The notes beneath the pieces are model-generated. The model saw nothing but the letters and a program-made list of their open reading frames with translations, was not told the DNA's origin and ran no database searches. The translations under genes and the position numbers were made by a program. A DNA stretch of 64,000 nt. It comes from the human T2T-CHM13v2.0 reference genome, Homo sapiens. Below are positions 1 to 64,000 of the stretch, one piece after another. Every line of letters begins with the position of its first letter. The first letter of the stretch is position 1. The stretch lies in contig CP086569.2 in the NCBI GenBank assembly GCA_009914755.4, positions 12,352,001-12,416,000 of the forward strand, written 5' to 3'.

Positions 1-820
1 AATGGAATGGAAACTAAAGGAATAGCATAGAAAGGAATGGCATTGAATGGAATGGAATGGAATGGAATCAGATGGAACAGAAAGGAATGGAATAGAATCG
101 AATGGTATGGCATCGAATGGATTGGAATGGAATGTAATGGAATGGAAAGGAATGGAATGGACTCGAATGGAATGTACTCAAATGGAATAGAATAGAATGG
201 AATGGAAGTAAATATAATGGACTCGAATGGAATGGATTGGAATAAATTGGAATTGAATGTATTGGATTCGAATGGAAAGGAATGGAATGGAATGGAATGG
301 ATTCGAATGGAATGGAATCGAATGGAATGGAACGAATTGGAATGTAATTGAATGGCGTCGAAAACAGTAGAAAGAAATGAAGTTTAATCGAATGATATCG
401 AATGGAATTGAATGGAATGTACGCGAATGGAATGGACTGGAATGGAATGGACTCTATGGGAATGAAGAGGAGTGGAATGGACTCGAATGTCATGGAGACG
501 ATTGGAATGGAAAGGAATGCAAAGGAATGGAATGGAATGGAATCTGATGCATCGCCATGGAATGGAATGGGGTCGAATGGAATAGAATCGAAAGGAATGG
601 CATCCAATGGAATGGAAACGAATTGAATGGAATGGCATGGAATGGAATGGAAAGGAATATAATGGAAAGGAATCGGATGGAACGGAATGGAATGTAAAGG
701 AGTCGAATGGAATAGAATCTAATAGAATTGCATTGATAGGAATGGAATCGAACTTACTCGAAAGGATTGGAGCCTAACAGAAGAGAATCGAACACAATAG
801 CATCAAATGGAATGGAAATG

Positions 821-865
821 AATGGAATGGAATGGAATGGAATGGAATGGAATGGAATGGAATGG
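821..865. repeat. Example of a pure (AATGG)9 tract; its length varies between HOR copies (10 copies at 8321-8370)
   Basis: Direct reading of the sequence. The flanks 'aatggaaatg' and 'acacacatgtaatgg' are conserved, and only the pentamer count changes. Confidence 0.85.
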
Positions 866-3262
866 ACACACATGTAATGGACTTGAATGGAATGGAATCA
901 AATAGAATGGACGCGAATGGAATGTTCTCAAATGGAATTTATGAAAATAGAATGGAATCGAAAGTCATTGAACATTATGGAATGGAATCAAATGGAATGA
1001 AATCGAATGGAAGGAACCGGAATGGAATGTACTGGAATAGAACGGACTCGAATGTTACGGAAAGAAAAGTAAGTGATTCGGATGTCTTTTAATTGAATGG
1101 AAAGAAATCAAATGGAATGGAAAGGAATAAAATGGAATGGAATGAAATAGAATGCAATAGAATGGAAGTGAGTGGAGTCGAGTTGAATGGAATCGAATTG
1201 AATGGAATAGAATGGAATAGAATCAAATGGAATGGACTCGAATGCAATGGAACCGAATGGAATGGACTGGAACATAATGGAATCGAACGTATTGGAATGG
1301 AAAGGAATGGAAAGGAATTGAATGCAACGGAAAGCAATGGAATCGAATGTAATGGAGTCGTATGTAGTGGAGTCGAATGGAATGGAATCAAATGGAAGGA
1401 AAAGAATACAATCGAATGGAATAGAATAGAATGCAACAGAATGAAACGGAGTGGAATCGAGTGGAATGGAATAGAATTGAATGGAATGGAAAGGAATGGA
1501 ATCGAATGGAATGGATCCGAATGGAATGGATCCGAATGGAATGGAATGGAACAAAATGGAATTGAACAGATTAGAATCGAATGGATCCGAATCGAATGGA
1601 ATGGAATAGAATGGAATGGAATGGAATGGAATGGAATGGAATGGAATGGACCCAAATGTAATGAACTCTAATGAAATGGACTTTAATAGAATGGATTAGA
1701 AAACAATGGGCTCGAATGGAATTTAATCAAGTCGAATTTAATGGAATGGAATGGAATGCAAAACTATGGAATAGCATCAAATGGAATGGAACAGAATAGA
1801 GTGGAATGGAATGGAATACACAGGAATAGAACAGACTCGAATGTAATGGATTGCAATGTAAGTGATTCAAAGGGAATGGAATCAAATGGAATATAATCAA
1901 ATGGAATGGAATGGAGTGCATTGGAATGGAATAAAATGGAATGCAAACAATGGTACAGAACTCATTTGAATCTAGAGGAGTGGAATCGAATGCAATGGGA
2001 AAGAATGGAATGGACACGAATGGAATGGATTGGAAACAAATGGAATGGAAAGGATTTTAATCATACAGAACAAAATAGAATGCAATGGACTCGAATGAAA
2101 TGGAGTCGAAGAGAATAGTATCAAATGGAAAGGAATGGAATGCAATCGAATCGAATGGAATGTTAATGAAATTAATTGAAAGGAATAGAATGGAATGAAG
2201 TGTAATGGAAAGATATCGAATTGAATGGAATTGAATGGAATGGACACAAACGGAATGGACTGGAATGGAATGAACTGGAAAGGAATGGAATGGAGCGGAA
2301 CGGACTCGAGTGCAATGGAATCGAATGGTATAGAATAGAATGGAATGGAATGGAAAGGAATAGAAGGGAATGGAATCGGATCCACGGGACAGATTGGAAT
2401 GGGGTAGAATTGAATAGAATCGAATGGAATGGCATCGAATGTAATGGAATGGAATGGACTCGAATGGAATGGAGTGACATGTAATGGAATCGAAAGGAAT
2501 GGAATCGAATGAAATGGAATTGAATGGAATAGAAAGGAATAGAATGGAATGGAGTTTAATGGAAAGATATTAAAAGTAATGGAATGGAATTGAGTGGACA
2601 CGAATGGAATGGACTGGAATGGAAAGGACTCGAATGAAATGGAACGCATTAGAATGGACTCGAATGGAATGGATTGGAGTGGAATGGTCTCGAATGGATT
2701 GGAAACGAATGGAATGCAAAGGAATAGAATGGAATGTAATCAAATGGAACGAAATGGAATGGAATGGATTCGACTGGAACAGAATTGAATGGAGTGGAAT
2801 TGATTGGAATGGAATGCAATCGAATGGAATGAACACGAATGGAATAGAATGAAATGAAATGGCATAGAATGGAATGGAATGGAATGGAATGGAATGGCAT
2901 GGAATGGAATGGAATGGAATGGAATGGCATGGAATGTAATGGAATGGAATGAAATTGATTGGAATGGGATGGGCCCAAAAGTAATGGACTCAAATAAAAG
3001 GGACTCAAATAGAATGAATTGGAAAGAAACGGTCTCGAATGTAATTCATTCGAATGGAATGATATTGAATGGAATGCAATAGTATGGAATGGTATCGAAT
3101 AGAATGGAATAGAATGGAATGGAATGGAACGGAATGGAGTGCATTTGAACGGACTCAAATGCAATAAATTGCAATATAATTGATTCAAATGGAATGGAAT
3201 CGAATACAATGTAAACAAACGGAATGGAAGGCAATGCAATGGCAAGGAATCGAATGAAATGG

Positions 3263-6200
3263 AATAAATGGAATGGAATCGAATGGAAAGGACGCGAATA
3301 TAATGGACTGTTAAGGAAAGGTCTCGAATCGAATTTATTCCAATAGAATGGAATCGAAAGGAATGCAATACTATAGAATCGAATCGAATGGAATGGAATT
3401 CAATGGAATGGACAGGAATGGAATGAACTGGAAGTGAATGGACAAGAACGTAATATATTGCAATGTAATGTATTCAAATGGAATGGAATGCAATCGAATG
3501 GAATTGACTCGATTGGAATGGACTGGAGTGGAATGGACTCAAATGGAATGTATTCGAATGTAATGGACCTGAAAGGAATGGAATCCAATGGAATGGAATT
3601 GAATGGAATCAAAAGGAATAGAATGGAATAGAGTGTCATTGAATGATATCGAATGGAAGGGAATGGAATGAAATCGAATGGAATGCACTGGAATGGAATG
3701 GACTCGATCAGAACGGACTGTAGCGGCATGTACACAAATGAAATGGAAACGAATGGAAAGGAATGAAATGGAATGAAATGGAATTGAAAGGAACGGAATG
3801 GAATGGAATGGAATGGAATGGATTGGAATAGAATGGATTCAAATAAAATAGAATCGATTGGAATGGTATTGAATGGAGGGGAATTGAATGGAATGGAAAG
3901 CAATGGAAGATATTGGAATCGAATGGCATCGAATGAAATGGAATGGAACGGAATGGAACGGACCCGAATGGAATGGAATGGACTCAAATGTAATGGACTC
4001 GAAAGGAATCGAATGAAATATAATAGACTCGAAAAGAATGGCCTCCAGCGGAATTTATTTGAATAGAATGGAATGAAATGGAATACAATAGTATTGAATG
4101 GAATAGAATGGAATGGAATCGAATGGAATGTAATCAAATGGAATGGAACGGAATTCAATATAATGGAATAGAATGGAATGCATTGGAAAGGAGCAGAGTG
4201 GAATCGAGTGGAATGGAATCGAAAGGAATGGAATCAAAGGGAAAGAAATGGAATTGAATGGACTTGAATGGAATTGAGTCGAAAGGAATTGACTCGAAAG
4301 GAATGGACTGGAACAAAAAGGAATCAAATGGACAGGAATGGAATGGAATGGAATGGAATGGACTGGAATAGAATGGAGTCAAATGCAAACGCATCGAATG
4401 GAATGGATTGAAATGGAATGCAATTGAATGGAATAGAAAGGAAGAGAATGGAATTGAGAGTAATGGAAAGATATGGATTGGAATGAAATGGAATGGAAAG
4501 GAATTGAATGTTAAGGAATGGACTCGGAAGAAATGGATTGGAATTTAATGGTCTCCAATGGAATGGACTGGAGTGGAACGGAATCGAATGGAATGAAAAG
4601 AATGGAACGGAATGGAACGGAAAGGAATAGAATGTTATGGAATCCGATTGGACCGAATGGAATGGAATGGAGTTTCATGAAATGGAGTCGAATAGAGTGG
4701 CATCAAAAGGAATGTAATGGAACGGAGTGGACTCCAAAGGAATGGACTCGAAAGGAATGGAGACGAACCAAATTGAATCCAATGGATTGGAGTCGAACAG
4801 AATGGAATGGAATGGAATGAACTCGACTGGAGTGGAGAGGAATGTAAAGGAATAGAATGGAATGTAATCAAATGGATTGCAACTGAATGGAATCAAAAAT
4901 AATAGAAAGGAATGGAGTGTAAAGGGATGATATTGAATATAATGGAATGGAATGGAATTCAATGGAATGGAGTCGAAGGAATGGACAGGAATGTAATGGA
5001 CTCCAATGGAATGGAATGGATGAAAATGGATTTGAACAGATTGGAATCGAACGGAATGGAATGCAATGGAATGGAATGGATTCGAATGGAGAAGAGACAA
5101 ATGGAATGGAAACGAATTCAATGGAATTGAAAAGAATAGAATGGAATGGCGTGTAATGGTAAGATACTAAATGGAATGGAATGGAATGGAATGGAATGGA
5201 TTGGAATGGACCCAAATGTAATGCCCTTGAATGGAATATACTCAAATAGAATGGAATCGAAAGGAAAGGTCTCAAATGGAATTTATTCAATACAATGGAA
5301 TCGAATGGAATGCAATAGAATGGAATGGAATCGAATGTAATGGAATCAAATAGAATGGACCAGAATGGAATGGACTGCCATAGAAGGGACTGCAGTGTAA
5401 TGGATTGAATTCTAATTCATTCAAATGGAATGGAATTGAATGGAATGGAATCCAATGGAATGGATAGGATTGTACTGGATTGGAATAGCATGGAATGCAA
5501 CGGAGTGGAATGGAGTTGAATGAAGTGGAATGGAATCGATTGGAATGGAATCAAATGGAATGGACGGGAATGGAATGGACTGGAAGAGAACAGACTCGAA
5601 TATAATGGATTGCAATGTAATTGATTCAAATGGAATGGAATCGAATGGAATGTAATAAAATTGAAGGGATTGGAGTTCAATGCAAAGGAAAAGAATGGAA
5701 TGCAAAGGAATGGAAAGGAATGGAGTGAAATCGAGTGTAATGGAATCGAATGGAATGAAATCGAATGGAATGGACTCAAAAGAAATGGACGAGGGACAAA
5801 ACTGAATCGAACTGATTGGAATGGAACGGAACGGAATGGAATGGAATGGTCTCCATTGGATCGGAGTAGAACGGATTGGAATGGAATGGAATGAAATGGA
5901 ATGGAAAGGAATAGAATGGAATGGAATGGAATGGAATGGAATGGAAGGTAATGGAAAGATAACGAACGGATTGGAAAGGAATGCAATGGACCCTAATGGA
6001 ATGGAATGGAATGGAACAGAAACCGATGGAATGGACTGGAGTGAAATGGAGTCGAATGTAATTGACTGGAGTGGAATGGACTCGAAAGGAATGGACTCGA
6101 ATAGAATGGACTGGAATGGATTGTGTTCGAATGGAGTGGAAAGGAATAAAATGGATTCCACCAGATTGGAATGGAACAGAATGGAATGGAATGGAATGGA

Positions 6201-6872
6201 ATGCAATGGAACGGCTTGACTGGAATGGAGTCGAATGCAATGGAATAGAAAGGAAAGGAATTGAATGGAATTGAAAGTAATAGATTTAAATGGAGTGCAA
6301 AGGAAAGATGTCGAATGGAATGGATCGAAAAGAAATAGAATGGAATGGACAGGAATGGAATGGAATAGAATGGAATAGACTGGCGTGCAATGAAAACGAA
6401 TGGAATGGAATGGAAAGGAATGGAGTAGAATAAATACTATGGAATGGAATGGAATGGAGGCGAAAGGAAAAGAATGGATTGGAATGTCACCGAATGGAAA
6501 GATAAGGAATGGAAAGGAGTGGATACGAATGGAATGGAATAGAAAGGAACGGAAAGGTAAAGAATGGAATGGAATCGGATAGAATGGAATGCAATGTAAT
6601 GGAGTCGAATGGAAAATAATCGAGTAGAATGATATTGAATGGAATGGAATTTAATGGAATGGAATGGAATGGAATGGACTCGAATGGAATGTACTCAAAT
6701 GGATTAGAATAGAATGGAATGGAACTAAACGTAATGAACTCGAATGGAATGGACACAAATAGAATGGAAGAGAAAGGAATGGTATTGAATGGAATTTATT
6801 CGAATAGAATGTAATTCAATGGAATGCAACAGTGTGGCATGGAATCAAATGGAATGGAATCGAATGGAATGG
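3263..6872. repeat. 3,610-bp satellite block present in the long HOR but absent from the short HOR (coordinates given for L1; same block in L2-L6)
   Basis: Long-unit sequence up to '...gcaatggcaaggaatcgaatgaaatgg' (ending 3262) and from 'acccgagtggaatggactcacatag' (from 6873) is contiguous in the short units as '...gcaatggaaaggaatcgaatgaaatggacccgagtggaatggactcacatag'. Confidence 0.8.
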
Positions 6873-7508
6873 ACCCGAGTGGAATGGACTCACATAGAAC
6901 AGCCTGGAATGTAATGGATGACAGTGTATTAGATTCGAAAGGACTGAAATCGAATGGAATGTAATCAAATAGAACGGAATTGAATGCATGGAATGGCATA
7001 GAAAGTAATGCAATGGAATGGAATAGACTGGAATGGAATGGAATCGGATGGAATGTAATGAAATGTAATGGAAGGAATGCCATGGAATGGAATGGAATGG
7101 AATGCAATGGCCCGGTGTATAATGGAGTGCAATGGAATTCAGTGGAATGTAGTCAACAGGAATGAAATAGAATGGAATTCAATATAAGGGAATGGCATCC
7201 AATGGCAGGGAATGGCATCCAATGGCAAGGAATGGAGTGGACTCCAATGGAAACAACATGAAAGGAATATAATATAATGGAATGGCATTGAACGATATGG
7301 AATGCAATGGAGTTAAAAGGTAAGATATCAAATGGAAAAGAATTGAATGGACTCGAATGGAATATAACGGAATGGAATGGACTCGAATGGAATGTACTAG
7401 AGTTGAATGGAATGGAATGGAATGGAAAACAATGGAAAGGAAAGGAAGGGAATTGAAAGGAAAGGAATAGAATGGAATGGAATCGGATAGAACGGAATTG
7501 AATGGAAT

Positions 7509-10500
7509 GGAAACTAAAGGAATAGCATAGAAAGGAATGGCATTGAATGGAATGGAATGGAATGGAATCAGATGGAACAGAAAGGAATGGAATAGAATCG
7601 AATGGTATGGCATCGAATGGATTGGAATGGAATGTAATGGAATGGAAAGGAATGGAATGGACTCGAATGGAATGTACTCAAATGGAATAGAATAGAATGG
7701 AATGGAAGTAAATATAATGGACTCGAATGGAATGGATTGGAATAAATTGGAATTGAATGTATTGGATTCGAATGGAAAGGAATGGAATGGAATGGAATGG
7801 ATTCGAATGGAATGGAATCGAATGGAATGGAACGAATTGGAATGTAATTGAATGGCGTCGAAAACAGTAGAAAGAAATGAAGTTTAATCGAATGATATCG
7901 AATGGAATTGAATGGAATGTACGCGAATGGAATGGACTGGAATGGAATGGACTCTATGGGAATGAAGAGGAGTGGAATGGACTCGAATGTCATGGAGACG
8001 ATTGGAATGGAAAGGAATGCAAAGGAATGGAATGGAATGGAATCTGATGCATCGCCATGGAATGGAATGGGGTCGAATGGAATAGAATCGAAAGGAATGG
8101 CATCCAATGGAATGGAAACGAATTGAATGGAATGGCATGGAATGGAATGGAAAGGAATATAATGGAAAGGAATCGGATGGAACGGAATGGAATGTAAAGG
8201 AGTCGAATGGAATAGAATCTAATAGAATTGCATTGATAGGAATGGAATCGAACTTACTCGAAAGGATTGGAGCCTAACAGAAGAGAATCGAACACAATAG
8301 CATCAAATGGAATGGAAATGAATGGAATGGAATGGAATGGAATGGAATGGAATGGAATGGAATGGAATGGACACACATGTAATGGACTTGAATGGAATGG
8401 AATCAAATAGAATGGACGCGAATGGAATGTTCTCAAATGGAATTTATGAAAATAGAATGGAATCGAAAGTCATTGAACATTATGGAATGGAATCAAATGG
8501 AATGAAATCGAATGGAAGGAACCGGAATGGAATGTACTGGAATAGAACGGACTCGAATGTTACGGAAAGAAAAGTAAGTGATTCGGATGTCTTTTAATTG
8601 AATGGAAAGAAATCAAATGGAATGGAAAGGAATAAAATGGAATGGAATGAAATAGAATGCAATAGAATGGAAGGGAGTGGAGTCGAGTTGAATGGAATCG
8701 AATTGAATGGAATAGAATGGAATAGAATCAAATGGAATGGACTCGAATGCAATGGAACCGAATGGAATGGACTGGAACATAATGGAATCGAACGTATTGG
8801 AATGGAAAGGAATGGAAAGGAATTGAATGCAACGGAAAGCAATGGAATCGAATGTAATGGAGTCGTATGTAGTGGAGTCGAATGGAATGGAATCAAATGG
8901 AAGGAAAAGAATACAATCGAATGGAATAGAATAGAATGCAACAGAATGAAACGGAGTGGAATCGAGTGGAATGGAATAGAATTGAATGGAATGGAAAGGA
9001 ATGGAATCGAATGGAATGGATCCGAATGGAATGGATCCGAATGGAATGGAATGGAACAAAATGGAATTGAACAGATTAGAATCGAATGGATCCGAATCGA
9101 ATGGAATGGAATAGAATGGAATGGAATGGAATGGAATGGAATGGAATGGAATGGAATGGAATGGAATGGACCCAAATGTAATGAACTCTAATGAAATGGA
9201 CTTTAATAGAATGGATTAGAAAACAATGGGCTCGAATGGAATTTAATCAAGTCGAATTTAATGGAATGGAATGGAATGCAAAACTATGGAATAGCATCAA
9301 ATGGAATGGAACAGAATAGAGTGGAATGGAATGGAATACACAGGAATAGAACAGACTCGAATGTAATGGATTGCAATGTAAGTGATTCAAAGGGAATGGA
9401 ATCAAATGGAATATAATCAAATGGAATGGAATGGAGTGCATTGGAATGGAATAAAATGGAATGCAAACAATGGTACAGAACTCATTTGAATCTAGAGGAG
9501 TGGAATCGAATGCAATGGGAAAGAATGGAATGGACACGAATGGAATGGATTGGAAACAAATGGAATGGAAAGGATTTTAATCATACAGAACAAAATAGAA
9601 TGCAATGGACTCGAATGAAATGGAGTCGAAGAGAATAGTATCAAATGGAAAGGAATGGAATGCAATCGAATCGAATGGAATGTTAATGAAATTAATTGAA
9701 AGGAATAGAATGGAATGAAGTGTAATGGAAAGATATCGAATTGAATGGAATTGAATGGAATGGACACAAACGGAATGGACTGGAATGGAATGAACTGGAA
9801 AGGAATGGAATGGAGCGGAACGGACTCGAGTGCAATGGAATCGAATGGTATAGAATAGAATGGAATGGAATGGAAAGGAATAGAAGGGAATGGAATCGGA
9901 TCCACGGGACAGATTGGAATGGGGTAGAATTGAATAGAATCGAATGGAATGGCATCGAATGTAATGGAATGGAATGGACTCGAATGGAATGGAGTGACAT
10001 GTAATGGAATCGAAAGGAATGGAATCGAATGAAATGGAATTGAATGGAATAGAAAGGAATAGAATGGAATGGAGTTTAATGGAAAGATATTAAAAGTAAT
10101 GGAATGGAATTGAGTGGACACGAATGGAATGGACTGGAATGGAAAGGACTCGAATGAAATGGAACGCATTAGAATGGACTCGAATGGAATGGATTGGAGT
10201 GGAATGGTCTCGAATGGATTGGAAACGAATGGAATGCAAAGGAATAGAATGGAATGTAATCAAATGGAACGAAATGGAATGGAATGGATTCGACTGGAAC
10301 AGAATTGAATGGAGTGGAATTGATTGGAATGGAATGCAATCGAATGGAATGAACACGAATGGAATAGAATGAAATGAAATGGCATAGAATGGAATGGAAT
10401 GGAATGGAATGGAATGGCATGGAATGGAATGGAATGGAATGGAATGGCATGGAATGTAATGGAATGGAATGAAATTGATTGGAATGGGATGGGCCCAAAA

Positions 10501-13500: not shown

Positions 13501-15023
13501 ATGGACCCTAATGGAATGGAATGGAATGGAACAGAAACCGATGGAATGGACTGGAGTGAAATGGAGTCGAATGTAATTGACTGGAGTGGAATGGACTCGA
13601 AAGGAATGGACTCGAATAGAATGGACTGGAATGGATTGTGTTCGAATGGAGTGGAAAGGAATAAAATGGATTCCACCAGATTGGAATGGAACAGAATGGA
13701 ATGGAATGGAATGGAATGCAATGGAACGGCTTGACTGGAATGGAGTCGAATGCAATGGAATAGAAAGGAAAGGAATTGAATGGAATTGAAAGTAATAGAT
13801 TTAAATGGAGTGCAAAGGAAAGATGTCGAATGGAATGGATCGAAAAGAAATAGAATGGAATGGACAGGAATGGAATGGAATAGAATGGAATAGACTGGCG
13901 TGCAATGAAAACGAATGGAATGGAATGGAAAGGAATGGAGTAGAATAAATACTATGGAATGGAATGGAATGGAGGCGAAAGGAAAAGAATGGATTGGAAT
14001 GTCACCGAATGGAAAGATAAGGAATGGAAAGGAGTGGATACGAATGGAATGGAATAGAAAGGAACGGAAAGGTAAAGAATGGAATGGAATCGGATAGAAT
14101 GGAATGCAATGTAATGGAGTCGAATGGAAAATAATCGAGTAGAATGATATTGAATGGAATGGAATTTAATGGAATGGAATGGAATGGAATGGACTCGAAT
14201 GGAATGTACTCAAATGGATTAGAATAGAATGGAATGGAACTAAACGTAATGAACTCGAATGGAATGGACACAAATAGAATGGAAGAGAAAGGAATGGTAT
14301 TGAATGGAATTTATTCGAATAGAATGTAATTCAATGGAATGCAACAGTGTGGCATGGAATCAAATGGAATGGAATCGAATGGAATGGACCCGAGTGGAAT
14401 GGACTCACATAGAACAGCCTGGAATGTAATGGATGACAGTGTATTAGATTCGAAAGGACTGAAATCGAATGGAATGTAATCAAATAGAACGGAATTGAAT
14501 GCATGGAATGGCATAGAAAGTAATGCAATGGAATGGAATAGACTGGAATGGAATGGAATCGGATGGAATGTAATGAAATGTAATGGAAGGAATGCCATGG
14601 AATGGAATGGAATGGAATGCAATGGCCCGGTGTATAATGGAGTGCAATGGAATTCAGTGGAATGTAGTCAACAGGAATGAAATAGAATGGAATTCAATAT
14701 AAGGGAATGGCATCCAATGGCAGGGAATGGCATCCAATGGCAAGGAATGGAGTGGACTCCAATGGAAACAACATGAAAGGAATATAATATAATGGAATGG
14801 CATTGAACGATATGGAATGCAATGGAGTTAAAAGGTAAGATATCAAATGGAAAAGAATTGAATGGACTCGAATGGAATATAACGGAATGGAATGGACTCG
14901 AATGGAATGTACTAGAGTTGAATGGAATGGAATGGAATGGAAAACAATGGAAAGGAAAGGAAGGGAATTGAAAGGAAAGGAATAGAATGGAATGGAATCG
15001 GATAGAACGGAATTGAATGGAAT
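7509..15023. repeat. HOR long unit L2 (7515 bp), variant set A
   Basis: Near-identical to L1, with identical six-frame translations over most ORFs. The length difference comes from extra AATGG pentamers in pure tracts (e.g. the tract at 8321-8370 versus 821-865). Confidence 0.88.
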
Positions 15024-33000: not shown

Positions 33001-36000
33001 CATGGCATGGAATGTAATGGAATGGAATGAAATTGATTGGAATGCGATGGGCCCAAAAGTAATGGACTCAAATAAAAGGGACTCAAATAGAATGAATTGG
33101 AAAGAAACGGTCTCGAATGTAATTCATACGAATGGAATGATATTGAATGGAATGCAATAGTATGGAATGGTATCGAATAGAATGGAATAGAATGGAATGG
33201 AATGGAACGGAATGGAGTGCATTTGAACGGACTCAAATGCAATAAATTGCAATATAATTGATTCAAATGGAATGGAATCGAATACAATGTAAACAAACGG
33301 AATGGAATTGAATGGAATCAAAAGGAATAGAATGGAATAGAGTGTCATTGAATGATATCGAATGGAAGGGAATGGAATGAATTCGAATGGAATGCACTGG
33401 AATGGAATGGACGCGATCAGAACGGACTGTAGCGGCATGTACACAAATGAAATGGAAACGAATGGAATGGAATGAAATGGAATGATATGGAATTGAAAGG
33501 AACGGAATGGAATGGAATGGAATGGAATGGATTGGAAAAGAATGGATTCAAATAAAATAGAATCGATTGGAATGGTATTGAATGGAGGGGAATTGAATGG
33601 AATGGAAAGCAATGGAAGATATTGGAATCGAATGGCATCTAATGAAATGGAATGGAACGGAATGGAACGGACCCGAATGGAATGGAATGGACTCAAATGG
33701 AATGGACTCGAATGGAATCGAATGAAATATAATAGACTCGAAAAGAATGGCCTCCAGCGGAATTTATTTGAATAGAATGGAATGAAATGGAATACAATAG
33801 TATTGAATGGAACAGAATGGAATGGAATCGAATGGAATGTAATCAAATGGAATGGAACGGAATTCAATATAATGGAATAGAATGGAATGCATTGGAAAGG
33901 AGCAGAGTGGAATCGAGTGGAATGGAATCGAAAGGAATGGAATCAAAGGGAAAGAAATGGAATTGAATGGACTTGAATGGAATTGAGTCGAAAGGAATTG
34001 ACTCGAAAGGAATGGACTGGAACAAAAAGGAATCAAATGGACAGGAATGGAATGGAATGGAATGGAATGGACTGGAATAGAATGGAGTCAAATGCAAACA
34101 CATCGAATGGAATGGATTGAAATGGAATGCAATTGAATGGAATAGAAAGGAAGAGAATGGAATTGAGAGTAATGGAAAGATATGGATTGGAATGAAATGG
34201 AATGGAAAGGAATTGAATGTTAAGGAATGGACTCGGAAGAAATGGATTGGAATTTAATGGTCTCCAATGGAATGGACTGGAGTGGAACGGAATCGAATGG
34301 AATGAAAAGAATGGAACGGAATGGAACGGAAAGGAATAGAATGTTATGGAATCCGATTGGACAGAATGGAATGGAATGGAGTTTCATGAAATGGAGTCGA
34401 ATAGAGTGGCATCAAAAGGAATGTAATGGAACGGAGTGGACTTCAAAGGAATGGACTCGCAAGGAATGGAGACGAACCAAATTGAATCCAATGGATTGGA
34501 GTCGAACAGAATGGAATGGAATGGAATGAACTCGACTGGAGTGGAGAGGAATGTAAAGGAATAGAATGGAATGTAATCAAATGGATTGCAACTGAATGGA
34601 ATCAAAAATAATAGAAAGGAATGGAGTGTAAAGGGATGATATTGAATATAATGGAATGGAATGGAATTCAATGGAATGGAGTCGAAGGAATGGACAGGAA
34701 TGTAATGGACTCCAATGGAATGGAATGGATGAAAATGGATTTGAACAGATTGGAATCGAACGGAATGGAATGCAATGGAATGGAATGGATTCGAATGGAG
34801 AAGAGACAAATGGAATGGAAACGAATTCAATGGAATTGAAAAGAATAGAATGGAATGGCGTGTAATGGTAAGATACTAAATGGAATGGAATGGAATGGAC
34901 TGGATTGGAATGGACCCAAATGTAATGCCCTCGAATGGAATATACTCAAATAGAATGGAATCGAAAGGAAAGGTCTCAAATGGAATTTATTCAATACAAT
35001 GGAATCGAATGGAATGCAATAGAATGGAATGGAATCGAATGTAATGGAATCAAATAGAATGGACCAGAATGGAATGGACTGCCATAGAACGGACTGCAGT
35101 GTAATGGATTGAATTCTAATTCATTCAAATGGAATGGAATTGAATGGAATGGAATCCAATGGAATGGATAGGATTGTACTGGATTGGAATAGCATGGAAT
35201 GCAACGGAGTGGAATGGAGTTGAATGAAGTGGAATGGAATCGATTGGAATGGAATCAAATGGAATGGACGGGAATGGAATGGACTGGAAGAGAACAGACT
35301 CGAATATAATGGATTGCAATGTAATTGATTCAAATGGAATGGAATCGAATGGAATGTGATAAAATTGAAGGGATTGGAGTTCAATGTAATGGAAAAGAAT
35401 GGAATGCAAAGGAATGGAAGGGAACGGAGTGAAATCGAGTGTAATGGAATCGAATGGAATGAAATCGAATGGAATGGACTCAAAAAAAATGGACGAGGGA
35501 CAAAACTGAATCGAACTGATTGGAATGGAACGGAACGGAATGGAATGGAATGGTCTCCATTGGATCGGAGTAGAACGGATTGGAATGGAATGGAATGAAA
35601 TGGAATGGAAAGGAATAGAATGGAATGGAATGGAATGGAATGGAAGGTAATGGAAAGATAACGAACGGATTGGAAAGGAATGCAATGGACCCTAATGGAA
35701 TGGAATGGAATGGAACAGAAACCAATGGAATGGACTGGAGTGAAATGGAGTCGAATGTAATTGACTGGAGTGGAATGGACTCGAAAGGAATGGACTCGAA
35801 TAGAATGGACTGGAATGGATTGTGTTCGAATGGAGTGGAAAGGAATAAAATGGATTCCACCAGATTGGAATGGAACAGAATGGAATGGAATGGAATGGAA
35901 TGCAATGGAACGGCTTGACTGGAATGGAGTCGAATGCAATGGAATAGAAAGGAAAGGAATTGAATGGAATTGAAAGTAATAGATTTAAATGGAGTGCAAA

Positions 36001-37237
36001 GGAAAGATGTCGAATGGAATGGATCGAAAAGAAATAGAATGGAATGGACAGGAATGGAATGGAATAGAATGGAATAGACTGGCGTGCAATGAAAACGAAT
36101 GGAATGGAATGGAAAGGAATGGAGTAGAATAAATACTATGGAATGGAATGGAATGGAATGGAATGGAATGGAATGGAATGGAATGGAGGCGAAAGGAAAA
36201 GAATGGATTGGAATGTCACCGAATGGAAAGATAAGGAATGGAAAGGAGTGGATACGAATGGAATGGAATAGAAAGGAACGGAAAGGTAAAGAATGGAATG
36301 GAATCGGATAGAATGGAATGCAATGTAATGGAGTCGAATGGAAAATAATCGAGTAGAATGATATTGAATGGAATGGAATTTAATGGAATGGAATGGAATG
36401 GAATGGACTCGAATGGAATGTACTCAAATGGATTAGAATAGAATGGAATGGAACTAAACGTAATGAACTCGAATGGAATGGACACAAATAGAATGGAAGA
36501 GAAAGGAATGGTATTGAATGGAATTTATTCGAATAGAATGTAATTCAATGGAATGCAACAGTGTGGCATGGAATCAAATGGAATGGAATCGAATGGAATG
36601 GACCCGAGTGGAATGGACTCACATAGAACAGCCTGGAATGTAATGGATGACAGTGTATTAGATTCGAAGGGACTGAAATCGAATGGAATGTAATCAAATA
36701 GAACGGAATTGAATGCATGGAATGGCATAGAAAGTAATGCAATGGAATGGAATAGACTGGAATGGAATGGAATCGGATGGAATGTAATGAAATGTAATGG
36801 AAGGAATGCCATGGAATGGAATGGAATGGAATGCAATGGCCCGGTGTATAATGGAGTGCAATGGAATTCAGTGGAATGTAGTCAACAGGAATGAAATAGA
36901 ATGGAATTCAATATAAGGGAATGGCATCCAATGGCAGGGAATGGCATCCAATGGCAAGGAATGGAGTGGACTCCAATGGAAACAACATGAAAGGAATATA
37001 ATATAATGGAATGGCATTGAACGATATGGAATGCAATGGAGTTAAAAGGTAAGATATCAAATGGAAAAGAATTGAATGGACTCGAATGGAATATAACGGA
37101 ATGGAATGGACTCGAATGGAATGTACTAGAGTTGAATGGAATGGAATGGAATGGAAAACAATGGAAAGGAAAGGAAGGGAATTGAAAGGAAAGGAATAGA
37201 ATGGAATGGAATCGGATAGAACGGAATTGAATGGAAT
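30036..37237. repeat. HOR long unit L5 (7202 bp), variant set B, with internal ~379-bp deletion plus pentamer-tract expansions
   Basis: At 33298-33310, 'acggaatggaattgaatggaatcaaaagg' fuses sequence that lies ~379 bp apart in the other long units (L1 offsets ~3220 and ~3598). The (AATGG)n tract at ~32912-33010 is expanded. Confidence 0.82.
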
Positions 37238-40200
37238 GGAAACTAAAGGAATAGCATAGAAAGGAATGGCATTGAATGGAATGGAATGGAATGGAATCAG
37301 ATGGAACAGAAAGGAATGGAATAGAATCGAATGGTATGGCATCGAATGGATTGGAATGGAATGTAATGGAATGGAAAGGAATGGAATGGACTCGAATGGA
37401 ATGTACTCAAATGGAATAGAATAGAATGGAATGGAAGTAAATATAATGGACTCGAATGGAATGGATTGGAATAAATTGGAATTGAATGTATTGGATTCGA
37501 ATGGAAAGGAATGGAATGGAATGGAATGGATTCGAATGGAATGGAATCGAATGGAATGGAACGAATTGGAATGTAATTGAATGGCGTCGAAAACAGTAGA
37601 AAGAAATGAAGTTTAATCGAATGATATCGAATGGAATTGAATGGAATGTACGCGAATGGAATGGACTGGAATGGAATGGACTCTATGGGAATGAAGAGGA
37701 GTGGAATGGACTCGAATGTCATGGAGACGATTGGAATGGAAGGGAATGCAAAGGAATGGAATGGAATGGAATCTGATGCATCGCAATGGAATGGAATGGG
37801 GTCGAATGGCATAGAATCGAAAGGAATGGCATCCAATGGAATGGAAACGAATTGAATGGAATGGCATGGAATGGAATGGAAAGGAATATAATGGAAAGGA
37901 ATCGGATGGAACGGAATGGAATGTAATGGAGTCGAATGGAATAGAATCTAATAGAATTGCATTGATAGGAATGGAATCGAACGGACTCGAAAGGATTGGA
38001 GCCTAACAGAAGAGAATCGAACACAATAGCATCAAATGGAATGGAAATGAATGGAATGGAATGGAATGGAATGGAATGGAATGGAATGGAATGGAATGGA
38101 CACACATGTAATGGACTTGAATGGAATGGAATCAAATAGAATGGACGCGAATGGAATGTTCTCAAATGGAATTTATGAAAATAGAATGGAATCGAAAGTC
38201 ATTGAACATTATGGAATGGAATCAAATGGAATGAAATCGAATGGAAGGAACCGGAATGGAATGTACTGGAATAGAACGGACTCGAATGTTACGGAAAGAA
38301 AAGTAAGTGATTCGGATGTCTTTTAATTGAATGGAAAGAAATCAAATGGAATGGAAAGGAATAAAATGGAATGGAATGAAATAGAATGCAATAGAATGGA
38401 AGTGAGTGGAGTCGAGTTGAATGGAATCGAATTGAATGGAATAGAATGGAATAGAATCAAATGGAATGGACTCGAATGCAATGGAACCGAATGGAATGGA
38501 CTGGAACATAATGGAATCGAACGTATTGGAATGGAAAGGAATGGAAAGGAATTGAATGCAACGGAAAGCAATGGAATCGAATGTAATGGAGTCGTATGTA
38601 GTGGAGTCGAATGGAATGGAATCAAATGGAAGGAAAAGAATACAATCGAATGGAATAGAATAGAATGCAACAGAATGAAACGGAGTGGAATCGAGTGGAA
38701 TGGAGTAGAATTGAATGGAATGGAAAGGAATGGAATCGAATGGAATGGATCCGAATGGAATGGATCCGAATGGAATGGAATGGAACAAAATGGAATTGAA
38801 CAGATTAGAATCGAATGGATCCGAATCGAATGGAATGGAATATAATGGAATGGAATGGAATGGAATGGAATGGAATGGAATGGAATGGAATGGACCCAAA
38901 TGTAATGAACTCTAATGAAATGGACTTTAATAGAATGGATTAGAAAACAATGGGCTCGAATGGAATTTAATCAAGTCGAATTTAATGGAATGGAATGGAA
39001 TGCAAAACTATGGAATAGCATCAAATGGAATGGAACAGAATAGAGTGGAATGGAATGGAATACACAGGTATAGAACAGACTCGAATGTAATGGATTGCAA
39101 TGTAAGTGATTCAAAGGGAATGGAATCAAATGGAATATAATCAAATGGAATGGAATGGAGTGCATTGGAATGGAATAAAATGGAATGCAAACAATGGTAC
39201 AGAACTCATTTGAATCTAGAGGAGTGGAATCGAATGCAATGGGAAAGAATGGAATGGACACGAATGGAATGGATTGGAAACAAATGGAATGGAAAGGATT
39301 TTAATCATACAGAACAAAATAGAATGCAATGGACTCGAATGAAATGGAGTCGAAGAGAATAGTATCAAATGGAAAGGAATGGAATGCAATCGAATCGAAT
39401 GGAATGTTAATGAAATTAATTGAAAGGAATAGAATGGAATGAAGTGTAATGGAAAGATATCGAATTGAATGGAATTGAATGGAATGGACACAAACGGAAT
39501 GGACTGGAATGGAATGAACTGGAAAGGAATGGAATGGAGCGGAACGGACTCGAGTGCAATGGAATCGAATGGTATAGAATAGAATGGAATGGAATGGAAA
39601 GGAATAGAAGGGAATGGAATCGGATCCAACGGGACAGATTAGAATGGGGTAGAATTGAATAGAATCGAATGGAATGGCATCGAATGTAATGGAATGGAAT
39701 GGACTCGAATGGAATGGAGTGACATGTAATGGAATCGAAGGGAATGGAATCGAATGAAATGGAATTGAATGGAATAGAAAGGAATAGAATGGAATGGAGT
39801 TTAATGGAAAGATATTAAAAGTAATGGAATGGAATTGAGTGGACACGAATGGAATGGACTGGAATGGAAAGGACTCGAATGAAATGGAGCGCATTAGAAT
39901 GGACTCGAATGGAATGGATTGGAGTGGAATGGTCTCGAATGGATTGGAAACGAATGGAATGCAAAGGAATAGAATGGAATGTAATCAAATGGAACGAAAT
40001 GGAATGGAATGGATTCGACTTTAACAGAATTGAATGGAGTGGAATTGATTGGAATGGAATGCAATCGAATGGAATGAACACGAATGGAATAGAATGAAAT
40101 GAAATGGCATAGAATGGAATGGAATGGAATGGAATGGAATGGCATGGAATGGAATGGAATGGAATGGAATGGCATGGAATGTAATGGAATGGAATGAAAT

Positions 40201-43200
40201 TGATTGGAATGGGATGGGCCCAAAAGTAATGGACTCAAATAAAAGGGACTCAAATAGAATGAATTGGAAAGAAACGGTCTCGAATGTAATTCATTCGAAT
40301 GGAATGATATTGAATGGAATGCAATAGTATGGAATGGTATCGAATAGAATGGAATAGAATGGAATGGAATGGAACGGAATGGAGTGCATTTGAACGGACT
40401 CAAATGCAATAAATTGCAATATAATTGATTCAAATGGAATGGAATCGAATACAATGTAAACAAACGGAATGGAAGGCAATGCAATGGCAAGGAATCGAAT
40501 GAAATGGAATAAATGGAATGGAATCGAATGGAAAGGACGCGAATATAATGGACTGTTAAGGAAAGGTCTCGAATCGAATTTATTCCAATAGAATGGAATC
40601 GAAAGGAATGCAATACTATTGAATCGAATCGAATGGAATGGAATTCAATGGAATGGACAGGAATGGAATGAACTGGAAGTGAATGGACAAGAACGTAATA
40701 TATTCCAATGTAATGTATTCAAATGGAATGGAATGCAATCGAATGGAATTGACTCGATTGGAATGGACTGGAGTGGAATGGACTCAAATGGAATGTATTC
40801 GAATGTAATGGACCTGAAAGGAATGGAATCCAATGGAATGGAATTGAATGGAATCAAAAGGAATAGAATGGAATAGAGTGTCATTGAATGATATCGAATG
40901 GAAGGGAATGGAATGAAATCGAATGGAATGCACTGGAATGGAATGGACTCGATCAGAACGGACTGTAGCGGCATGTACACAAATGAAATGGAAACGAATG
41001 GAATGGAATGAAATGGAATGAAATGGAATTGAAAGGAACGGAATGGAATGGAATGGAATGGAATGGATTGGAATAGAATGGATTCAAATAAAATAGAATC
41101 GATTGGAATGGTATTGAATGGAGGGGAATTGAATGGAATGGAAAGCAATGGAAGATATTGGAATCGAATGGCATCGAATGAAATGGAATGGAACGGAATG
41201 GAACGGACCCGAATGGAATGGAATGGACTCAAATGTAATGGACTCGAAAGGAATCGAATGAAATATAATAGACTCGAAAAGAATGGCCTCCAGCGGAATT
41301 TATTTGAATAGAATGGAATGAAATGGAATACAATAGTATTGAATGGAACAGAATGGAATGGAATCGAATGGAATGTAATCAAATGGAATGGAACGGAATT
41401 CAATATAATGGAATAGAATGGAATGCATTGGAAAGGAGCAGAGTGGAATCGAGTGGAATGGAATCGAAAGGAATGGAATCAAAGGGAAAGAAATGGAATT
41501 GAATGGACTTGAATGGAATTGAGTCGAAAGGAATTGACTCGAAAGGAATGGACTGGAACAAAAAGGAATCAAATGGACAGGAATGGAATGGAATGGAATG
41601 GAATGGACTGGAATAGAATGGAGTCAAATGCAAACGCATCGAATGGAATGGATTGAAATGGAATGCAATTGAATGGAATGGAAAGGAAGAGAATGGAATT
41701 GAGAGTAATGGAAAGATATGGATTGGAATGAAATGGAATGGAAAGGAATTGAATGTTAAGGAATGGACTCGGAAGAAATGGATTGGAATTTAATGGTCTC
41801 CAATGGAATGGACTGGAGTGGAACGGAATCGAATGGAATGAAAAGAATGGAACGGAATGGAACGGAAAGGAATAGAATGTTATGGAATCCGATTGGACAG
41901 AATGGAATGGAATGGAGTTTCATGAAATGGAGTCGAATAGAGTGGCATCAAAAGGAATGTAATGGAACGGAGTGGACTCCAAAGGAATGGACTCGAAAGG
42001 AATGGAGACGAACCAAATTGAATCCAATGGATTGGAGTCGAACAGAATGGAATGGAATGGAATGAACTCGACTGGAGTGGAGAGGAATGTAAAGGAATAG
42101 AATGGAATGTAATCAAATGGATTGCAACTGAATGGAATCAAAAATAATAGAAAGGAATGGAGTGTAAAGGGATGATATTGAATATAATGGAATGGAATGG
42201 AATTCAATGGAATGGAGTCGAAGGAATGGACAGGAATGTAATGGACTCTAATGGAATGGAATGGATGAAAATGGATTTGAACAGATTGGAATCGAACGGA
42301 ATGGAATGCAATGGAATGGAATGGATTCGAATGGAGAAGAGACAAATGGAATGGAAACGAATTCAATGGAATTGAAAAGAATAGAATGGAATGGCGTGTA
42401 ATGGTAAGATACTAAATGGAATGGAATGGAATGGAATGGAATGGATTGGAATGGACCCAAATGTAATGCCCTCGAATGGAATATACTCAAATAGAATGGA
42501 ATCGAAAGGAAAGGTCTCAAATGGAATTTATTCAATACAATGGAATCGAATGGAATGCAATAGAATGGAATGGAATCGAATGTAATGGAATCAAATAGAA
42601 TGGACCAGAATGGAATGGACTGCCATAGAACGGAATGCAGTGTAATGGATTGAATTCTAATTCATTCAAATGGAATGGAATTGAATGGAATGGAATCCAA
42701 TGGAATGGATAGGATTGTACTGGATTGGAATAGCATGGAATGCAACGGAGTGGAATGGAGTTGAATGAAGTGGAATGGAATCGATTGGAATAGAATCAAA
42801 TGGAATGGACGGGAATGGAATGGACTGGAAGAGAACAGACTCGAATATAATGGATTGCAATGTAATTGATTCAAATGGAATGGAATCGAATGGAATGTAA
42901 TAAAATTGAAGGGATTGGAGTTCAATGCAAAGGAAAAGAATGGAATGCAAAGGAATGGAAAGGAATGGAGTGAAATCGAGTGTAATGGAATCGAATGGAA
43001 TGAAATCGAATGGAATGGACTCAAAAGAAATGGACGAGGGACAAAACTGAATCGAACTGATTGGAATGGAACGGAACGGAATGGAATGGAATGGTCTCCA
43101 TTGGATCGGAGTAGAACGGATTGGAATGGAATGGAATGAAATGGAATGGAAAGGAATAGAATGGAATGGAATGGAATGGAATGGAAGGTAATGGAAAGAT

Positions 43201-44748
43201 AACGAACGGATTGGAAAGGAATGCAATGGACCCTAATGGAATGGAATGGAATGGAACAGAAACCGATGGAATGGACTGGAGTGAAATGGAGTCGAATGTA
43301 ATTGACTGGAGTGGAATGGACTCGAAAGGAATGGACTCGAATAGAATGGACTGGAATGGATTGTGTTCGAATGGAGTGGAAAGGAATAAAATGGATTCCA
43401 CCAGATTGGAATGGAACAGAATGGAATGGAATGGAATGGAATGCAATGGAACGGCTTGACTGGAATGGAGTCGAATGCAATGGAATAGAAAGGAAAGGAA
43501 TTGAATGGAATTGAAAGTAATAGATTTAAATGGAGTGCAAAGGAAAGATGTCGAATGGAATGGATCGAAAAGAAATAGAATGGAATGGACAGGAATGGAA
43601 TGGAATAGAATGGAATAGACTGGCGTGCAATGAAAACGAATGGAATGGAATGGAAAGGAATGGAGTAGAATAAATACTATGGAATGGAATGGAATGGAGG
43701 CGAAAGGAAAAGAATGGATTGGAATGTCACCGAATGGAAAGATAAGGAATGGAAAGGAGTGGATACGAATGGAATGGAATAGAAAGGAACGGAAAGGTAA
43801 AGAATGGAATGGAATCGGATAGAATGGAATGCAATGTAATGGAGTCGAATGGAAAATAATCGAGTAGAATGATATTGAATGGAATGGAATTTAATGGAAT
43901 GGAATGGAATGGAATGGACTCGAATGGAATGTACTCAAATGGATTAGAATAGAATGGAATGGAACTAAACGTAATGAACTCGAATGGAATGGACACAAAT
44001 AGAATGGAAGAGAAAGGAATGGTATTGAATGGAATTTATTCGAATAGAATGTAATTCAATGGAATGCAACAGTGTGGCATGAAATCAAATGGAATGGAAT
44101 CGAATGGAATGGACCCGAGTGGAATGGACTCACATAGAACAGCCTGGAATGTAATGGATGACAGTGTATTAGATTCGAAGGGACTGAAATCGAATGGAAT
44201 GTAATCAAATAGAACGGAATTGAATGCATGGAATGGCATAGAAAGTAATGCAATGGAATGGAATAGACTGGAATGGAATGGAATCGGATGGAATGTAATG
44301 AAATGTAATGGAAGGAATGCCATGGAATGGAATGGAATGGAATGCAATGGCCCGGTGTATAATGGAGTGCAATGGAATTCAGTGGAATGTAGTCAACAGG
44401 AATGAAATAGAATGGAATTCAATATAAGGGAATGGCATCCAATGGCAGGGAATGGCATCCAATGGCAAGGAATGGAGTGGACTCCAATGGAAACAACATG
44501 AAAGGAATATAATATAATGGAATGGCATTGAACGATATGGAATGCAATGGAGTTAAAAGGTAAGATATCAAATGGAAAAGAATTGAATGGACTCGAATGG
44601 AATATAACGGAATGGAATGGACTCGAATGGAATGTACTAGAGTTGAATGGAATGGAATGGAATGGAAAACAATGGAAAGGAAAGGAAGGGAATTGAAAGG
44701 AAAGGAATAGAATGGAATGGAATCGGATAGAACGGAATTGAATGGAAT
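37238..44748. repeat. HOR long unit L6 (7511 bp), variant set B
   Basis: Full set of long-unit landmarks, including the 3.6 kb block absent from the short units (tagcggcatgtacac at ~40965, gaatggcctccagcgg at ~41282, ccatagaacggaatgcagtg at ~42620). Confidence 0.85.
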
Positions 44749-63883: not shown

Positions 63884-64000
63884 GGAAACTAAAGGAATAG
63901 AATAGAAAGGAATGGCATTGAATGGAATGGAATGGAATGGAATCAGATGGAACAGAAAGGAATGGAATAGAATCGAATGGTATGGCATCGAATGGATTGG
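63884..64000. repeat. Start of a further short-type HOR copy (partial)
   Basis: The landmark 'ggaaactaaaggaatagaatagaaagg' restarts at 63884 in the short-type form. Confidence 0.75.

What the first reader, a model, noticed from the sequence alone, without database searches (positions are those of the whole stretch)
9..44748. Six tandem copies of a ~7.5 kb higher-order repeat
A set of more than 8 unique divergent landmarks recurs in the same order with periods of 7500, 7515, 7501, 7511, 7202 and 7511 bp. Copies are near-identical, and many six-frame translations are letter-for-letter identical between copies. This shows recent homogenisation of a long HOR rather than random pentamer drift.
Basis: seen in the sequence. 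Interest (0 to 1): 0.5.

Follow-up and report, generated by a model that had tools for sequence, protein, structure and literature searches.

The report
Human satellite III nested tandem repeat
The window is ordinary pentamer (GGAAT) satellite DNA, most likely human satellite III from the Y chromosome, arranged as six near-identical 7.5 kb units followed by five 3.8 kb units that are a deleted form of the same unit; long units of this kind are already known.

Summary
These units are 99.1-99.9% identical, against 74.5% for out-of-register satellite.

The repeat does not end at 44,748. Five more units follow (3876, 3811, 3811, 3811 and 3826 bp) and fill the rest of the window. Each is the 7.5 kb unit minus one ~3.6 kb internal deletion at an 18-nt pentamer microhomology. 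The first short unit is a recombinant between a long-type and a short-type unit.

All 64 kb is one-stranded GGAAT-derived satellite with no genes, no Rfam RNA and no inserts. The published marker 24-mer for HSat3A3 (Y chromosome) occurs exactly once per long unit; the other 13 HSat2/3 markers have no exact hit. Fourteen metagenome contigs, one labelled human skin, carry the same unit at 89-99.9% identity. One has its own 7587-bp period.

This is a "nested tandem repeat" of human satellite III, a known class that evolves by unequal exchange, pentamer slippage and conversion. NTR length is known to vary between subregions of one HSat3 array. Low interest.

The parts
1..40 (+). End of a preceding repeat unit, cut by the window edge
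   Evidence: The anchor 24-mer first occurs at 41. Composition is the same as the rest of the window.
41..7540 (+). Long unit L1 (7500 bp)
   Evidence: It differs from L2 by 6 mismatches and from L3 by 15.
7541..15055 (+). Long unit L2 (7515 bp)
15056..22556 (+). Long unit L3 (7501 bp)
22557..30067 (+). Long unit L4 (7511 bp). Its closest relative is L6 (23 mismatches).
30068..37269 (+). Long unit L5 (7202 bp). It is the most divergent long unit (53-61 mismatches to the others) and shares several variants with the short units. It carries its own 369-bp deletion.
33299..33307 (+). Junction of the 369-bp deletion in L5, at a GGAATGGAA microhomology
   Evidence: The equivalent segment in L4 is 25743-26111.
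37270..44780 (+). Long unit L6 (7511 bp)
44781..48656 (+). Unit S1 (3876 bp), a recombinant. The left part is long-type and L5-like (8 differences to L5 against 26-29 to S2-S5). The right part is identical to S2-S5 (0-1 differences) and carries the 3.6 kb deletion.
46951..47463 (+). Interval holding the long-type to short-type exchange point in S1, between the last L-type and the first S-type informative site
48003..48004 (+). First copy of the 3.6 kb deletion junction (GGAATCGAATGA|AATGGACCCGAG). It recurs at 51814/5, 55625/6, 59436/7 and 63262/3. The missing segment corresponds to L1 3258-6867.
48657..52467 (+). Short unit S2 (3811 bp)
   Evidence: S2-S5 differ from each other by 3-6 mismatches.
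52468..56278 (+). Short unit S3 (3811 bp)
56279..60089 (+). Short unit S4 (3811 bp)
60090..63915 (+). Short unit S5 (3826 bp)
63916..64000 (+). Start of a further unit, cut by the window edge
   Evidence: The anchor 24-mer occurs at 63916.
4901..4924 (+). Exact match to the reverse complement of the published HSat3A3-specific 24-mer CTTTACACTCCATTCCTTTCTATT. It recurs at 12421, 19912, 27433, 34610 and 42146, once per long unit, inside the part deleted from the short units.
   Evidence: marker taken from PMC4022460 Table 1.

Best explanation
The window is a stretch of pericentromeric (GGAAT)n-derived satellite of the human satellite III (HSat3) family. It most probably belongs to subfamily HSat3A3, which would place it in the DYZ17 region of the Y chromosome. 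It is organised as a multi-kilobase nested tandem repeat.

A ~7.5 kb unit of irregularly diverged pentamers was amplified in tandem, most likely by unequal sister-chromatid or intrachromatid exchange, and kept similar by gene conversion. That explains six copies at 99.1-99.9% identity. Replication slippage in the pentamer register adds small indels in multiples of 5 bp.

In one lineage of units, a misaligned exchange between two near-identical 18-nt motifs (GGAATCGAATG[A/G]AATGGA) about 3.6 kb apart removed the middle of the unit. The resulting 3.8 kb unit diverged ~1.3-1.5% from the long type and was amplified to at least five copies. The present boundary between the two domains is an in-register exchange inside unit S1, somewhere in 46,951-47,463, about 0.5-1 kb before the deletion junction at 48,003/4.

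Shown here: the anatomy, the identities, the junction sequences, the recombinant unit, the marker match and the presence of the same unit in other samples. Inferred: the recombination mechanisms, the order of events and the chromosomal location. The DNA has no coding or structured-RNA content detectable here. Its role is that of constitutive heterochromatin.
For: Pentamer satellite in one orientation: GGAAT occurs 3967 times against 12 for ATTCC, and 71% of 5-mers lie within one mismatch of a GGAAT rotation. No 100-bp window falls below 0.42, GC is 0.37-0.39 and GC skew is +0.56 to +0.62 throughout. There are no inverted repeats.

Units and identities. Null of 74.5%. No internal sub-period in the unit.

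Short unit as a deletion derivative: k-mer diagonals, alignment gap at columns 3269-6923 in all S units, junction sequences with microhomology.

S1 as a chimera.

Slippage: apart from the two large deletions, 21 of the 22 distinct indel blocks are multiples of 5 bp.

Family and subfamily: the HSat3A3 marker 24-mer is exact once per long unit. The other 13 HSat2/3 subfamily markers give 0 exact hits and the three HSat2 markers give 0 hits even with 3 mismatches (markers from PMC4022460).

Independent samples: 14 metagenome contigs hold the 39-mer landmark, one titled 'human skin metagenome'. They are collinear with the unit at 89-96% over 7.2-9 kb and up to 99.9% over 1.3 kb. Contig L010 has its own 7587-bp period.

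Literature: HSat2/3 form multi-kb nested tandem repeats whose period varies locally within an array (bioRxiv 10.1101/2021.07.12.452052). DYZ1 is a ~3.6 kb HSat3 NTR that evolves by unequal exchange (10.1101/2022.12.01.518724). DYZ17 is a 0.86-1.74 Mb array next to the Y centromere (10.1101/2022.12.01.518658), compared with the 836 listed for HSat3A3 on Y in PMC4022460 Table 1 (read here as kb).
Against: The subfamily assignment rests on one published example 24-mer, which is effectively one independent match. The full marker set and the T2T annotation were not available.

Y linkage could not be tested. Only one metagenome contig is explicitly labelled human, and none can be assigned to a chromosome.

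The classical satellite III 10-mer CAACCCGA(A/G)T is absent; only one GACCCGAGT occurs per unit.

No paper I could read states a 7.5 kb period for DYZ17 or HSat3A3.

Unequal crossing-over, conversion and slippage are inferred from end products, not observed. The substitution spectrum is odd for simple point mutation (Ts/Tv 0.7).
Confidence: 0.88

Rival explanations
1. It is the same class of satellite but a different address: another HSat3 subfamily or chromosome, or the orthologous (AATGG)n satellite of another great ape, and not human Y HSat3A3/DYZ17. For example, the short units could be DYZ1/HSat3A6, whose unit is ~3.5-3.6 kb.
For: Only one marker 24-mer supports HSat3A3. The short units, at 3.8 kb, are close in size to DYZ1 at 3.5-3.6 kb. 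(AATGG)n satellites also occur on ape Y chromosomes.
Against: The HSat3A6 marker has 0 hits with up to 1 mismatch. The 3.8 kb unit is demonstrably the 7.5 kb unit minus 3.6 kb, at 98.5-99% identity to it. Contigs from human-associated metagenomes reach 99.9% identity. The marker set was derived from a human genome, HuRef.
Confidence: 0.1
2. It is an assembly artefact: the tandem copies, or the switch from 7.5 kb to 3.8 kb units, were created by mis-assembly of a repetitive region and do not exist as such in the genome.
For: Satellite arrays are the hardest regions to assemble. Y-chromosome population studies exclude DYZ17 from variant calling for this reason.
Against: Copies carry 134 variable substitution sites (135 changes) and more than 20 indels. 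These fall into consistent nested haplotype groups with a clean recombinant, which is not the pattern of collapsed or stuttered assembly. The five short units share one exact junction and 12 private variants after it. Short-read contigs from other samples independently recover a ~7.5 kb unit with a 7587-bp period.
Confidence: 0.03
3. The unit is a functional cassette (a protein-coding gene, a structured RNA or a mobile element) that has been amplified, and the pentamer content is incidental.
For: ORFs of 252-287 aa recur once per unit.
Against: Their translations are (IPFHS)n-like read-through of the stop-free complement of GGAAT, and no such protein is on record in the gene-call collection. 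Rfam gives 0 matches at gathering thresholds. No 100-bp window departs from pentamer-derived sequence, and there are no inverted repeats or terminal structures.
Confidence: 0.01

Closest known systems
Nested tandem repeats (NTRs) of human satellites 2 and 3, as defined by Altemose et al. (T2T-CHM13 centromere maps)
   Same: The unit is multi-kilobase, built from irregularly diverged CATTC/GGAAT pentamers and repeated head to tail at very high identity. The period changes locally within one array, and there are no discrete equal-length monomers.
   Different: Nothing essential differs. The specific 7.5 kb and 3.8 kb periods were not found stated in the papers I could read.
HSat3A3 / DYZ17 array next to the human Y centromere
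   Same: The published HSat3A3 marker 24-mer is present exactly once per long unit. It is an (AATGG)n-based satellite. Array sizes of ~0.84 Mb (HSat3A3) and 0.86-1.74 Mb (DYZ17) fit a large homogeneous array.
   Different: Chromosomal location was not testable here, and the equivalence of HSat3A3 and DYZ17 is my inference from size and position.
DYZ1 (HSat3A6), the ~3.5-3.6 kb HSat3 repeat of Yq12
   Same: It is a pentamer-derived multi-kb NTR whose copies are >98% identical and which evolves by unequal exchange. Its unit size is close to that of the short units here.
   Different: The HSat3A6 marker is absent. The short unit here derives from the 7.5 kb unit by a 3.6 kb deletion.
Alpha-satellite higher-order repeats and their structural variants
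   Same: There is a hierarchical tandem organisation, local homogenisation into haplotype-like domains, and unit variants created by deletion or duplication through misaligned exchange.
   Different: The base repeat is 5 bp and strongly degenerate, not a 171-bp monomer. The unit cannot be written as an ordered set of discrete monomers, which is why the NTR term is used.

Membership tests
Human satellite III (HSat3) | Derived from a (CATTC)n/(GGAAT)n pentamer repeat | tested here: met
   31% of bases lie in exact GGAAT and 71% of 5-mers are within one mismatch of a GGAAT rotation. This holds across all 64 kb.
Human satellite III (HSat3) | Not HSat2: lacks HSat2-type sequence | tested here: met
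   The three HSat2 subfamily 24-mers give 0 hits even with 3 mismatches. ATCATCGAATGG-type motifs give 0 hits.
Classical satellite III in the older restriction/cloning sense (feature recalled from memory, Prosser et al. 1986) | Interspersed 10-mer CAACCCGA(A/G)T | tested here: not met
   0 occurrences on either strand, with one GACCCGAGT per unit. In Table 1 of PMC4022460 only the HSat3B1 example marker contains this motif. I therefore treat it as a subfamily trait, not a defining feature of the k-mer-defined HSat3 family.
HSat3A3 subfamily | Carries subfamily-specific 24-mers | tested here: met
   The single published example 24-mer is exact at 6 sites, one per long unit. With up to 2 mismatches there are still only those 6 sites, and the 13 other subfamily markers have 0 exact hits. 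The full marker set was not available.
HSat3A3 subfamily / DYZ17 | Located on the human Y chromosome next to the centromere | not testable with these tools
   No human reference was available. The supporting evidence is indirect: matches in human-associated metagenome contigs.
Nested tandem repeat (NTR) | A multi-kb unit repeated in tandem and built of shorter diverged repeats without discrete equal-length monomers | tested here: met
   There are eleven complete units. In-register identity is 98.5-99.9% against a 74.5% background, and the unit has no internal period.
DYZ1 / HSat3A6 | A ~3.6 kb unit carrying HSat3A6-specific sequence | tested here: not met
   The HSat3A6 marker has 0 hits with up to 1 mismatch. 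The 3.8 kb unit is a deletion form of the 7.5 kb unit.

The most novel reading that the evidence does not exclude
The window may capture a domain boundary at which a half-length unit variant is replacing or abutting the ancestral 7.5 kb unit. Two further details could have biological meaning. First, two independent deletions (369 bp in L5 and 3.6 kb in the S units) have left breakpoints only ~28 bp apart, which could mark a recombination or breakage hotspot in the unit. Second, the excess of transversions (Ts/Tv 0.7), with a weak sign that variant alleles copy contexts found elsewhere in the unit, could mean that out-of-register conversion, not point mutation, is the main source of sequence change in this satellite.
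Probability: 0.15. Interest if true: 0.3.

Novelty: already known. Interest (0 to 1): 0.1.

Why it matters
It matters little beyond annotation. The window should be labelled as HSat3-type satellite arranged as a nested tandem repeat, not as a gene-bearing or unusual region. The boundary between the 7.5 kb and 3.8 kb domains, the recombinant unit and the microhomology junctions give a clean small-scale example of how satellite unit length changes by misaligned exchange followed by local amplification. If the Y-chromosome assignment holds, the unit-specific variants and junction sequences could serve as markers for tracing DYZ17 array evolution across Y haplogroups.

Tried and rejected
(1) BLAST between short and long units could not locate the breakpoints, because alignments run on through out-of-register satellite at ~70% identity. 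Exact k-mer diagonals replaced it.

(2) The built-in the repeat finder was swamped by the pentamer background, reporting ~4000 'copies' of any 300-nt piece at 60-75%. It served only as a null and to show that there are no inverted repeats.

(3) I searched for an internal sub-period, such as two diverged half units inside the 7.5 kb unit, and found none. The 3.8 kb unit is therefore a deletion product and not an ancestral half unit.

(4) MAFFT placed the L5 deletion and the S deletion at the same left column. Inspection showed that the L5 junction really lies ~28 bp further left. A shared breakpoint, and derivation of S from L5, are therefore rejected.

(5) Literature searches for a published 7.5 kb period of HSat3A3 or DYZ17 found nothing. 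One search returned mostly DOI-string noise, and the Altemose 2022 review is not held.

(6) Two genome-contig scans, one for the 39-mer landmark and one for the HSat3A3 24-mer, gave 0 hits.

(7) Exact-protein look-ups of two unit ORFs gave nothing, and Rfam gave nothing.

(8) No metagenome contig carried an unambiguous S-type junction. The 30-mer test with one mismatch does not separate it from the intact right flank.

(9) I did not date the copies with a standard mutation rate. A pedigree study reports 2 of 53 de novo variants in DYZ17 against 1 SNV and 1 indel in euchromatic sequence, so the apparent rate in this array is not clock-like.
Full report
WHAT THE SEQUENCE IS. The whole 64 kb window is one kind of DNA: a degenerate (GGAAT)n pentamer satellite in a single orientation. 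GC content is 0.37-0.39 and GC skew is +0.56 to +0.62 in every 2-kb bin. GGAAT occurs 3967 times against 12 for its complement. Some 71% of all 5-mers lie within one mismatch of a rotation of GGAAT, and no 100-bp window falls below 0.42, so there are no transposon or unique-sequence inserts. No inverted repeats were found.

CHECK OF THE OBSERVATION. A 24-mer that occurs once per unit (CATTGAATGGAATGGAATGGAATG) lies at 41, 7541, 15056, 22557, 30068, 37270, 44781, 48657, 52468, 56279, 60090 and 63916. In a MAFFT alignment the six long units (L1-L6) are 99.14-99.92% identical, with 6-61 mismatches per 7.5 kb.

The appropriate null is the similarity of any pentamer satellite to itself out of register. 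That is 74.5% +/- 1.3, with a maximum of 78%, for 1-kb pieces. BLAST out-of-register alignments run at ~70.5%, and the repeat finder reports 60-75% at ~4000 positions. A 39-mer non-pentameric landmark occurs 11 times against 0 in shuffles.

The largest peak in the spectrum is 3811 bp (11,751 24-mers), and it comes from the right-hand third of the window. Positions 44,781-63,915 hold five further units: S1 of 3876 bp, S2-S4 of 3811 bp each and S5 of 3826 bp. A sixth begins at 63,916.

Exact k-mer diagonals and the 11-unit alignment show that a short unit is the long unit with one internal segment removed. That segment is alignment columns 3269-6923, equal to L1 3258-6867, and measures 3605-3615 bp depending on the copy. 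The junction reads GGAATCGAATGA|AATGGACCCGAG. In the long unit both flanks read GGAATCGAATG[A/G]AATGGA, an 18-nt near-identity. The junction recurs at 48003/4, 51814/5, 55625/6, 59436/7 and 63262/3.

S2-S5 differ from each other by only 3-6 mismatches (99.84-99.92%). They differ from the long units by 49-58 mismatches over the shared 3.9 kb (98.5-98.7%). The 7.5 kb unit has no internal period of its own, so the short unit is a deletion product and not an ancestral half.

FINE STRUCTURE. The copies fall into groups: L1-L2-L3 (6-15 differences), L4 with L6 (23 differences), the outlier L5 (53-61 differences) and S2-S5.

L5 explains the 7202-bp period. It lacks 369 bp through a junction at a GGAATGGAA microhomology (window 33,299-33,307). 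MAFFT drew this deletion at the same left column as the S deletion. The sequences show that the L5 junction lies ~28 bp further left, and the S units retain the 28 bp that L5 lacks. The two deletions are therefore independent, though strikingly close together.

S1 is a recombinant. Up to alignment column ~2670 it is closest to L5 (8 differences, against 26-29 to S2-S5). Beyond that it is identical to S2-S5 (0-1 differences, against 9-17 to the long units). The exchange point lies between informative sites at 46,951 and 47,463, which is upstream of the deletion junction. The boundary between the long-unit and short-unit domains is therefore an in-register exchange between two already diverged unit types, not the deletion event itself.

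Apart from the two large deletions, 21 of the 22 distinct indel blocks are multiples of 5 bp (5-35 bp), the signature of slippage in the pentamer register.

NO GENES OR RNAs. ORFs of 252-287 aa recur with the unit, all on the minus strand. Their products are (IPFHS)n-like read-through of a repeat that lacks stop codons. They are not on record as called genes. Rfam has no match at gathering thresholds.

FAMILY. Table 1 of Altemose et al. 2014 (PMC4022460) gives one example subfamily-specific 24-mer for each of the 14 HSat2/3 subfamilies. The HSat3A3 marker matches exactly once per long unit (4901, 12421, 19912, 27433, 34610, 42146), and it gives the same six sites even when two mismatches are allowed. 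The other 13 markers have no exact hit, and the three HSat2 markers have none even with three mismatches.

HSat3A3 is described as specific to the Y chromosome, with 836 (read here as kb) listed for it in that table. Y-chromosome assemblies place an (AATGG)n-based DYZ17 array of 0.86-1.74 Mb beside the centromere. Equating HSat3A3 with DYZ17 is my inference from size and position.

The classical 10-mer CAACCCGA(A/G)T is absent. In that table the motif appears only in the HSat3B1 example marker, so I treat it as a subfamily trait.

INDEPENDENT SAMPLES. The invariant 39-mer landmark has no hit in 185,579 prokaryotic genomes but is found in 14 metagenome contigs, one titled 'human skin metagenome'. 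All are GGAAT satellite and collinear with the unit:
- L003: 7246 bp at 95.8%.
- L001: 7626 bp at 92.9%.
- L010: 7698 bp at 90.9%.
- L008 and L012: ~8.99 kb at 88.8%.
- L004: 1295 bp at 99.9% to the short units.

Six of the contigs carry the HSat3A3 marker. L010's ends overlap, giving its own period of 7587 bp. L008 and L012 contain a 1373-bp internal tandem duplication, which is another unit-length variant. The ~7.5 kb unit is therefore a general feature of this satellite in human-associated DNA. The window shows a locally homogenised patch of it.

MECHANISM AND COMPARISON WITH WHAT IS KNOWN. Altemose et al. describe HSat2/3 arrays as composed in places of multi-kb units. They name these nested tandem repeats, to distinguish them from HORs made of discrete monomers. 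[quoted passage not shown] The T2T-Y paper describes DYZ1 as a ~3.6 kb HSat3 NTR with most copies >98% identical and attributes its patterns to unequal exchange.

The window fits this picture in every respect tested. The most likely history has four steps. First, a 7.5 kb unit was amplified by unequal sister-chromatid or intrachromatid exchange. Second, a microhomology-guided misaligned exchange deleted 3.6 kb in one unit lineage. Third, that variant diverged and was amplified. Fourth, an in-register exchange joined the two domains. Slippage and conversion acted throughout. The anatomy is shown by the data; the processes are inferred.

SIDE OBSERVATIONS. Copy-to-copy substitutions show 56 transitions and 79 transversions, with only 15 CpG-context transitions. 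This is unusual for mammalian point mutation. I tested whether variant alleles recreate contexts that already exist elsewhere in the unit, using the never-observed bases as control. The result was marginal (k=9 p=0.054; k=13 p=0.027) and stronger for transversions (31 versus 14; 21 versus 8). This hints at out-of-register conversion but is not conclusive.

VERDICT. The feature is a known class of human satellite organisation, is very probably already present in published T2T annotations, and is of low interest.

Noticed in passing
They are the 7.5 kb unit minus a 3.6 kb internal segment. Their 3811-bp period is the strongest peak in the k-mer spectrum.
   Followed up: yes
window 46951-47463 (within unit S1, 44781-48656): S1 is a recombinant. 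Its left part is long-type and L5-like, while its right part is identical to the short units. The domain boundary is therefore an in-register exchange about 0.5-1 kb before the deletion junction.
   Followed up: yes
window 33299-33307 and 48003/4 (unit alignment columns ~3241 and 3269): Two independent deletions, 369 bp in L5 and ~3.6 kb in the S units, have left breakpoints only ~28 bp apart in a 7.5 kb unit. This may be a local hotspot or a coincidence (roughly 1% by chance).
   Followed up: partly
all 11 units (alignment of window 41-63915): Copy-to-copy substitutions show more transversions (79) than transitions (56) and few CpG transitions (15). A test for templated variants was marginal (p 0.03-0.09) and stronger for transversions.
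   Followed up: partly
L008 1-8985 and L012 1-8990 (metagenome contigs): These are variants of the same unit carrying a 1373-bp internal tandem duplication, about 89% identical to the window's long unit. The family therefore has at least three unit lengths: ~3.8, ~7.5 and ~9.0 kb.
   Followed up: partly
L001-L014 (ENA/JGI metagenome contigs): Satellite DNA of this family sits in public metagenome assemblies, one labelled human skin, as host contamination. Several contigs have lengths near one repeat unit, as expected when an assembler collapses a tandem repeat.
   Followed up: partly
window 3400-4158, 12937-13755, 47395-48243 and their copies, minus strand: ORFs of 252-287 aa with (IPFHS)n-like products recur with the unit. 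They arise because the pentamer repeat lacks stop codons, and gene callers could mistake them for proteins.
   Followed up: yes
window 6872-6887 and one copy per unit: There is a single GACCCGAGTGGAATGG per unit, immediately right of the S deletion junction. It resembles the classical satellite III motif CAACCCGAGT, which is otherwise absent from the window.
   Followed up: no
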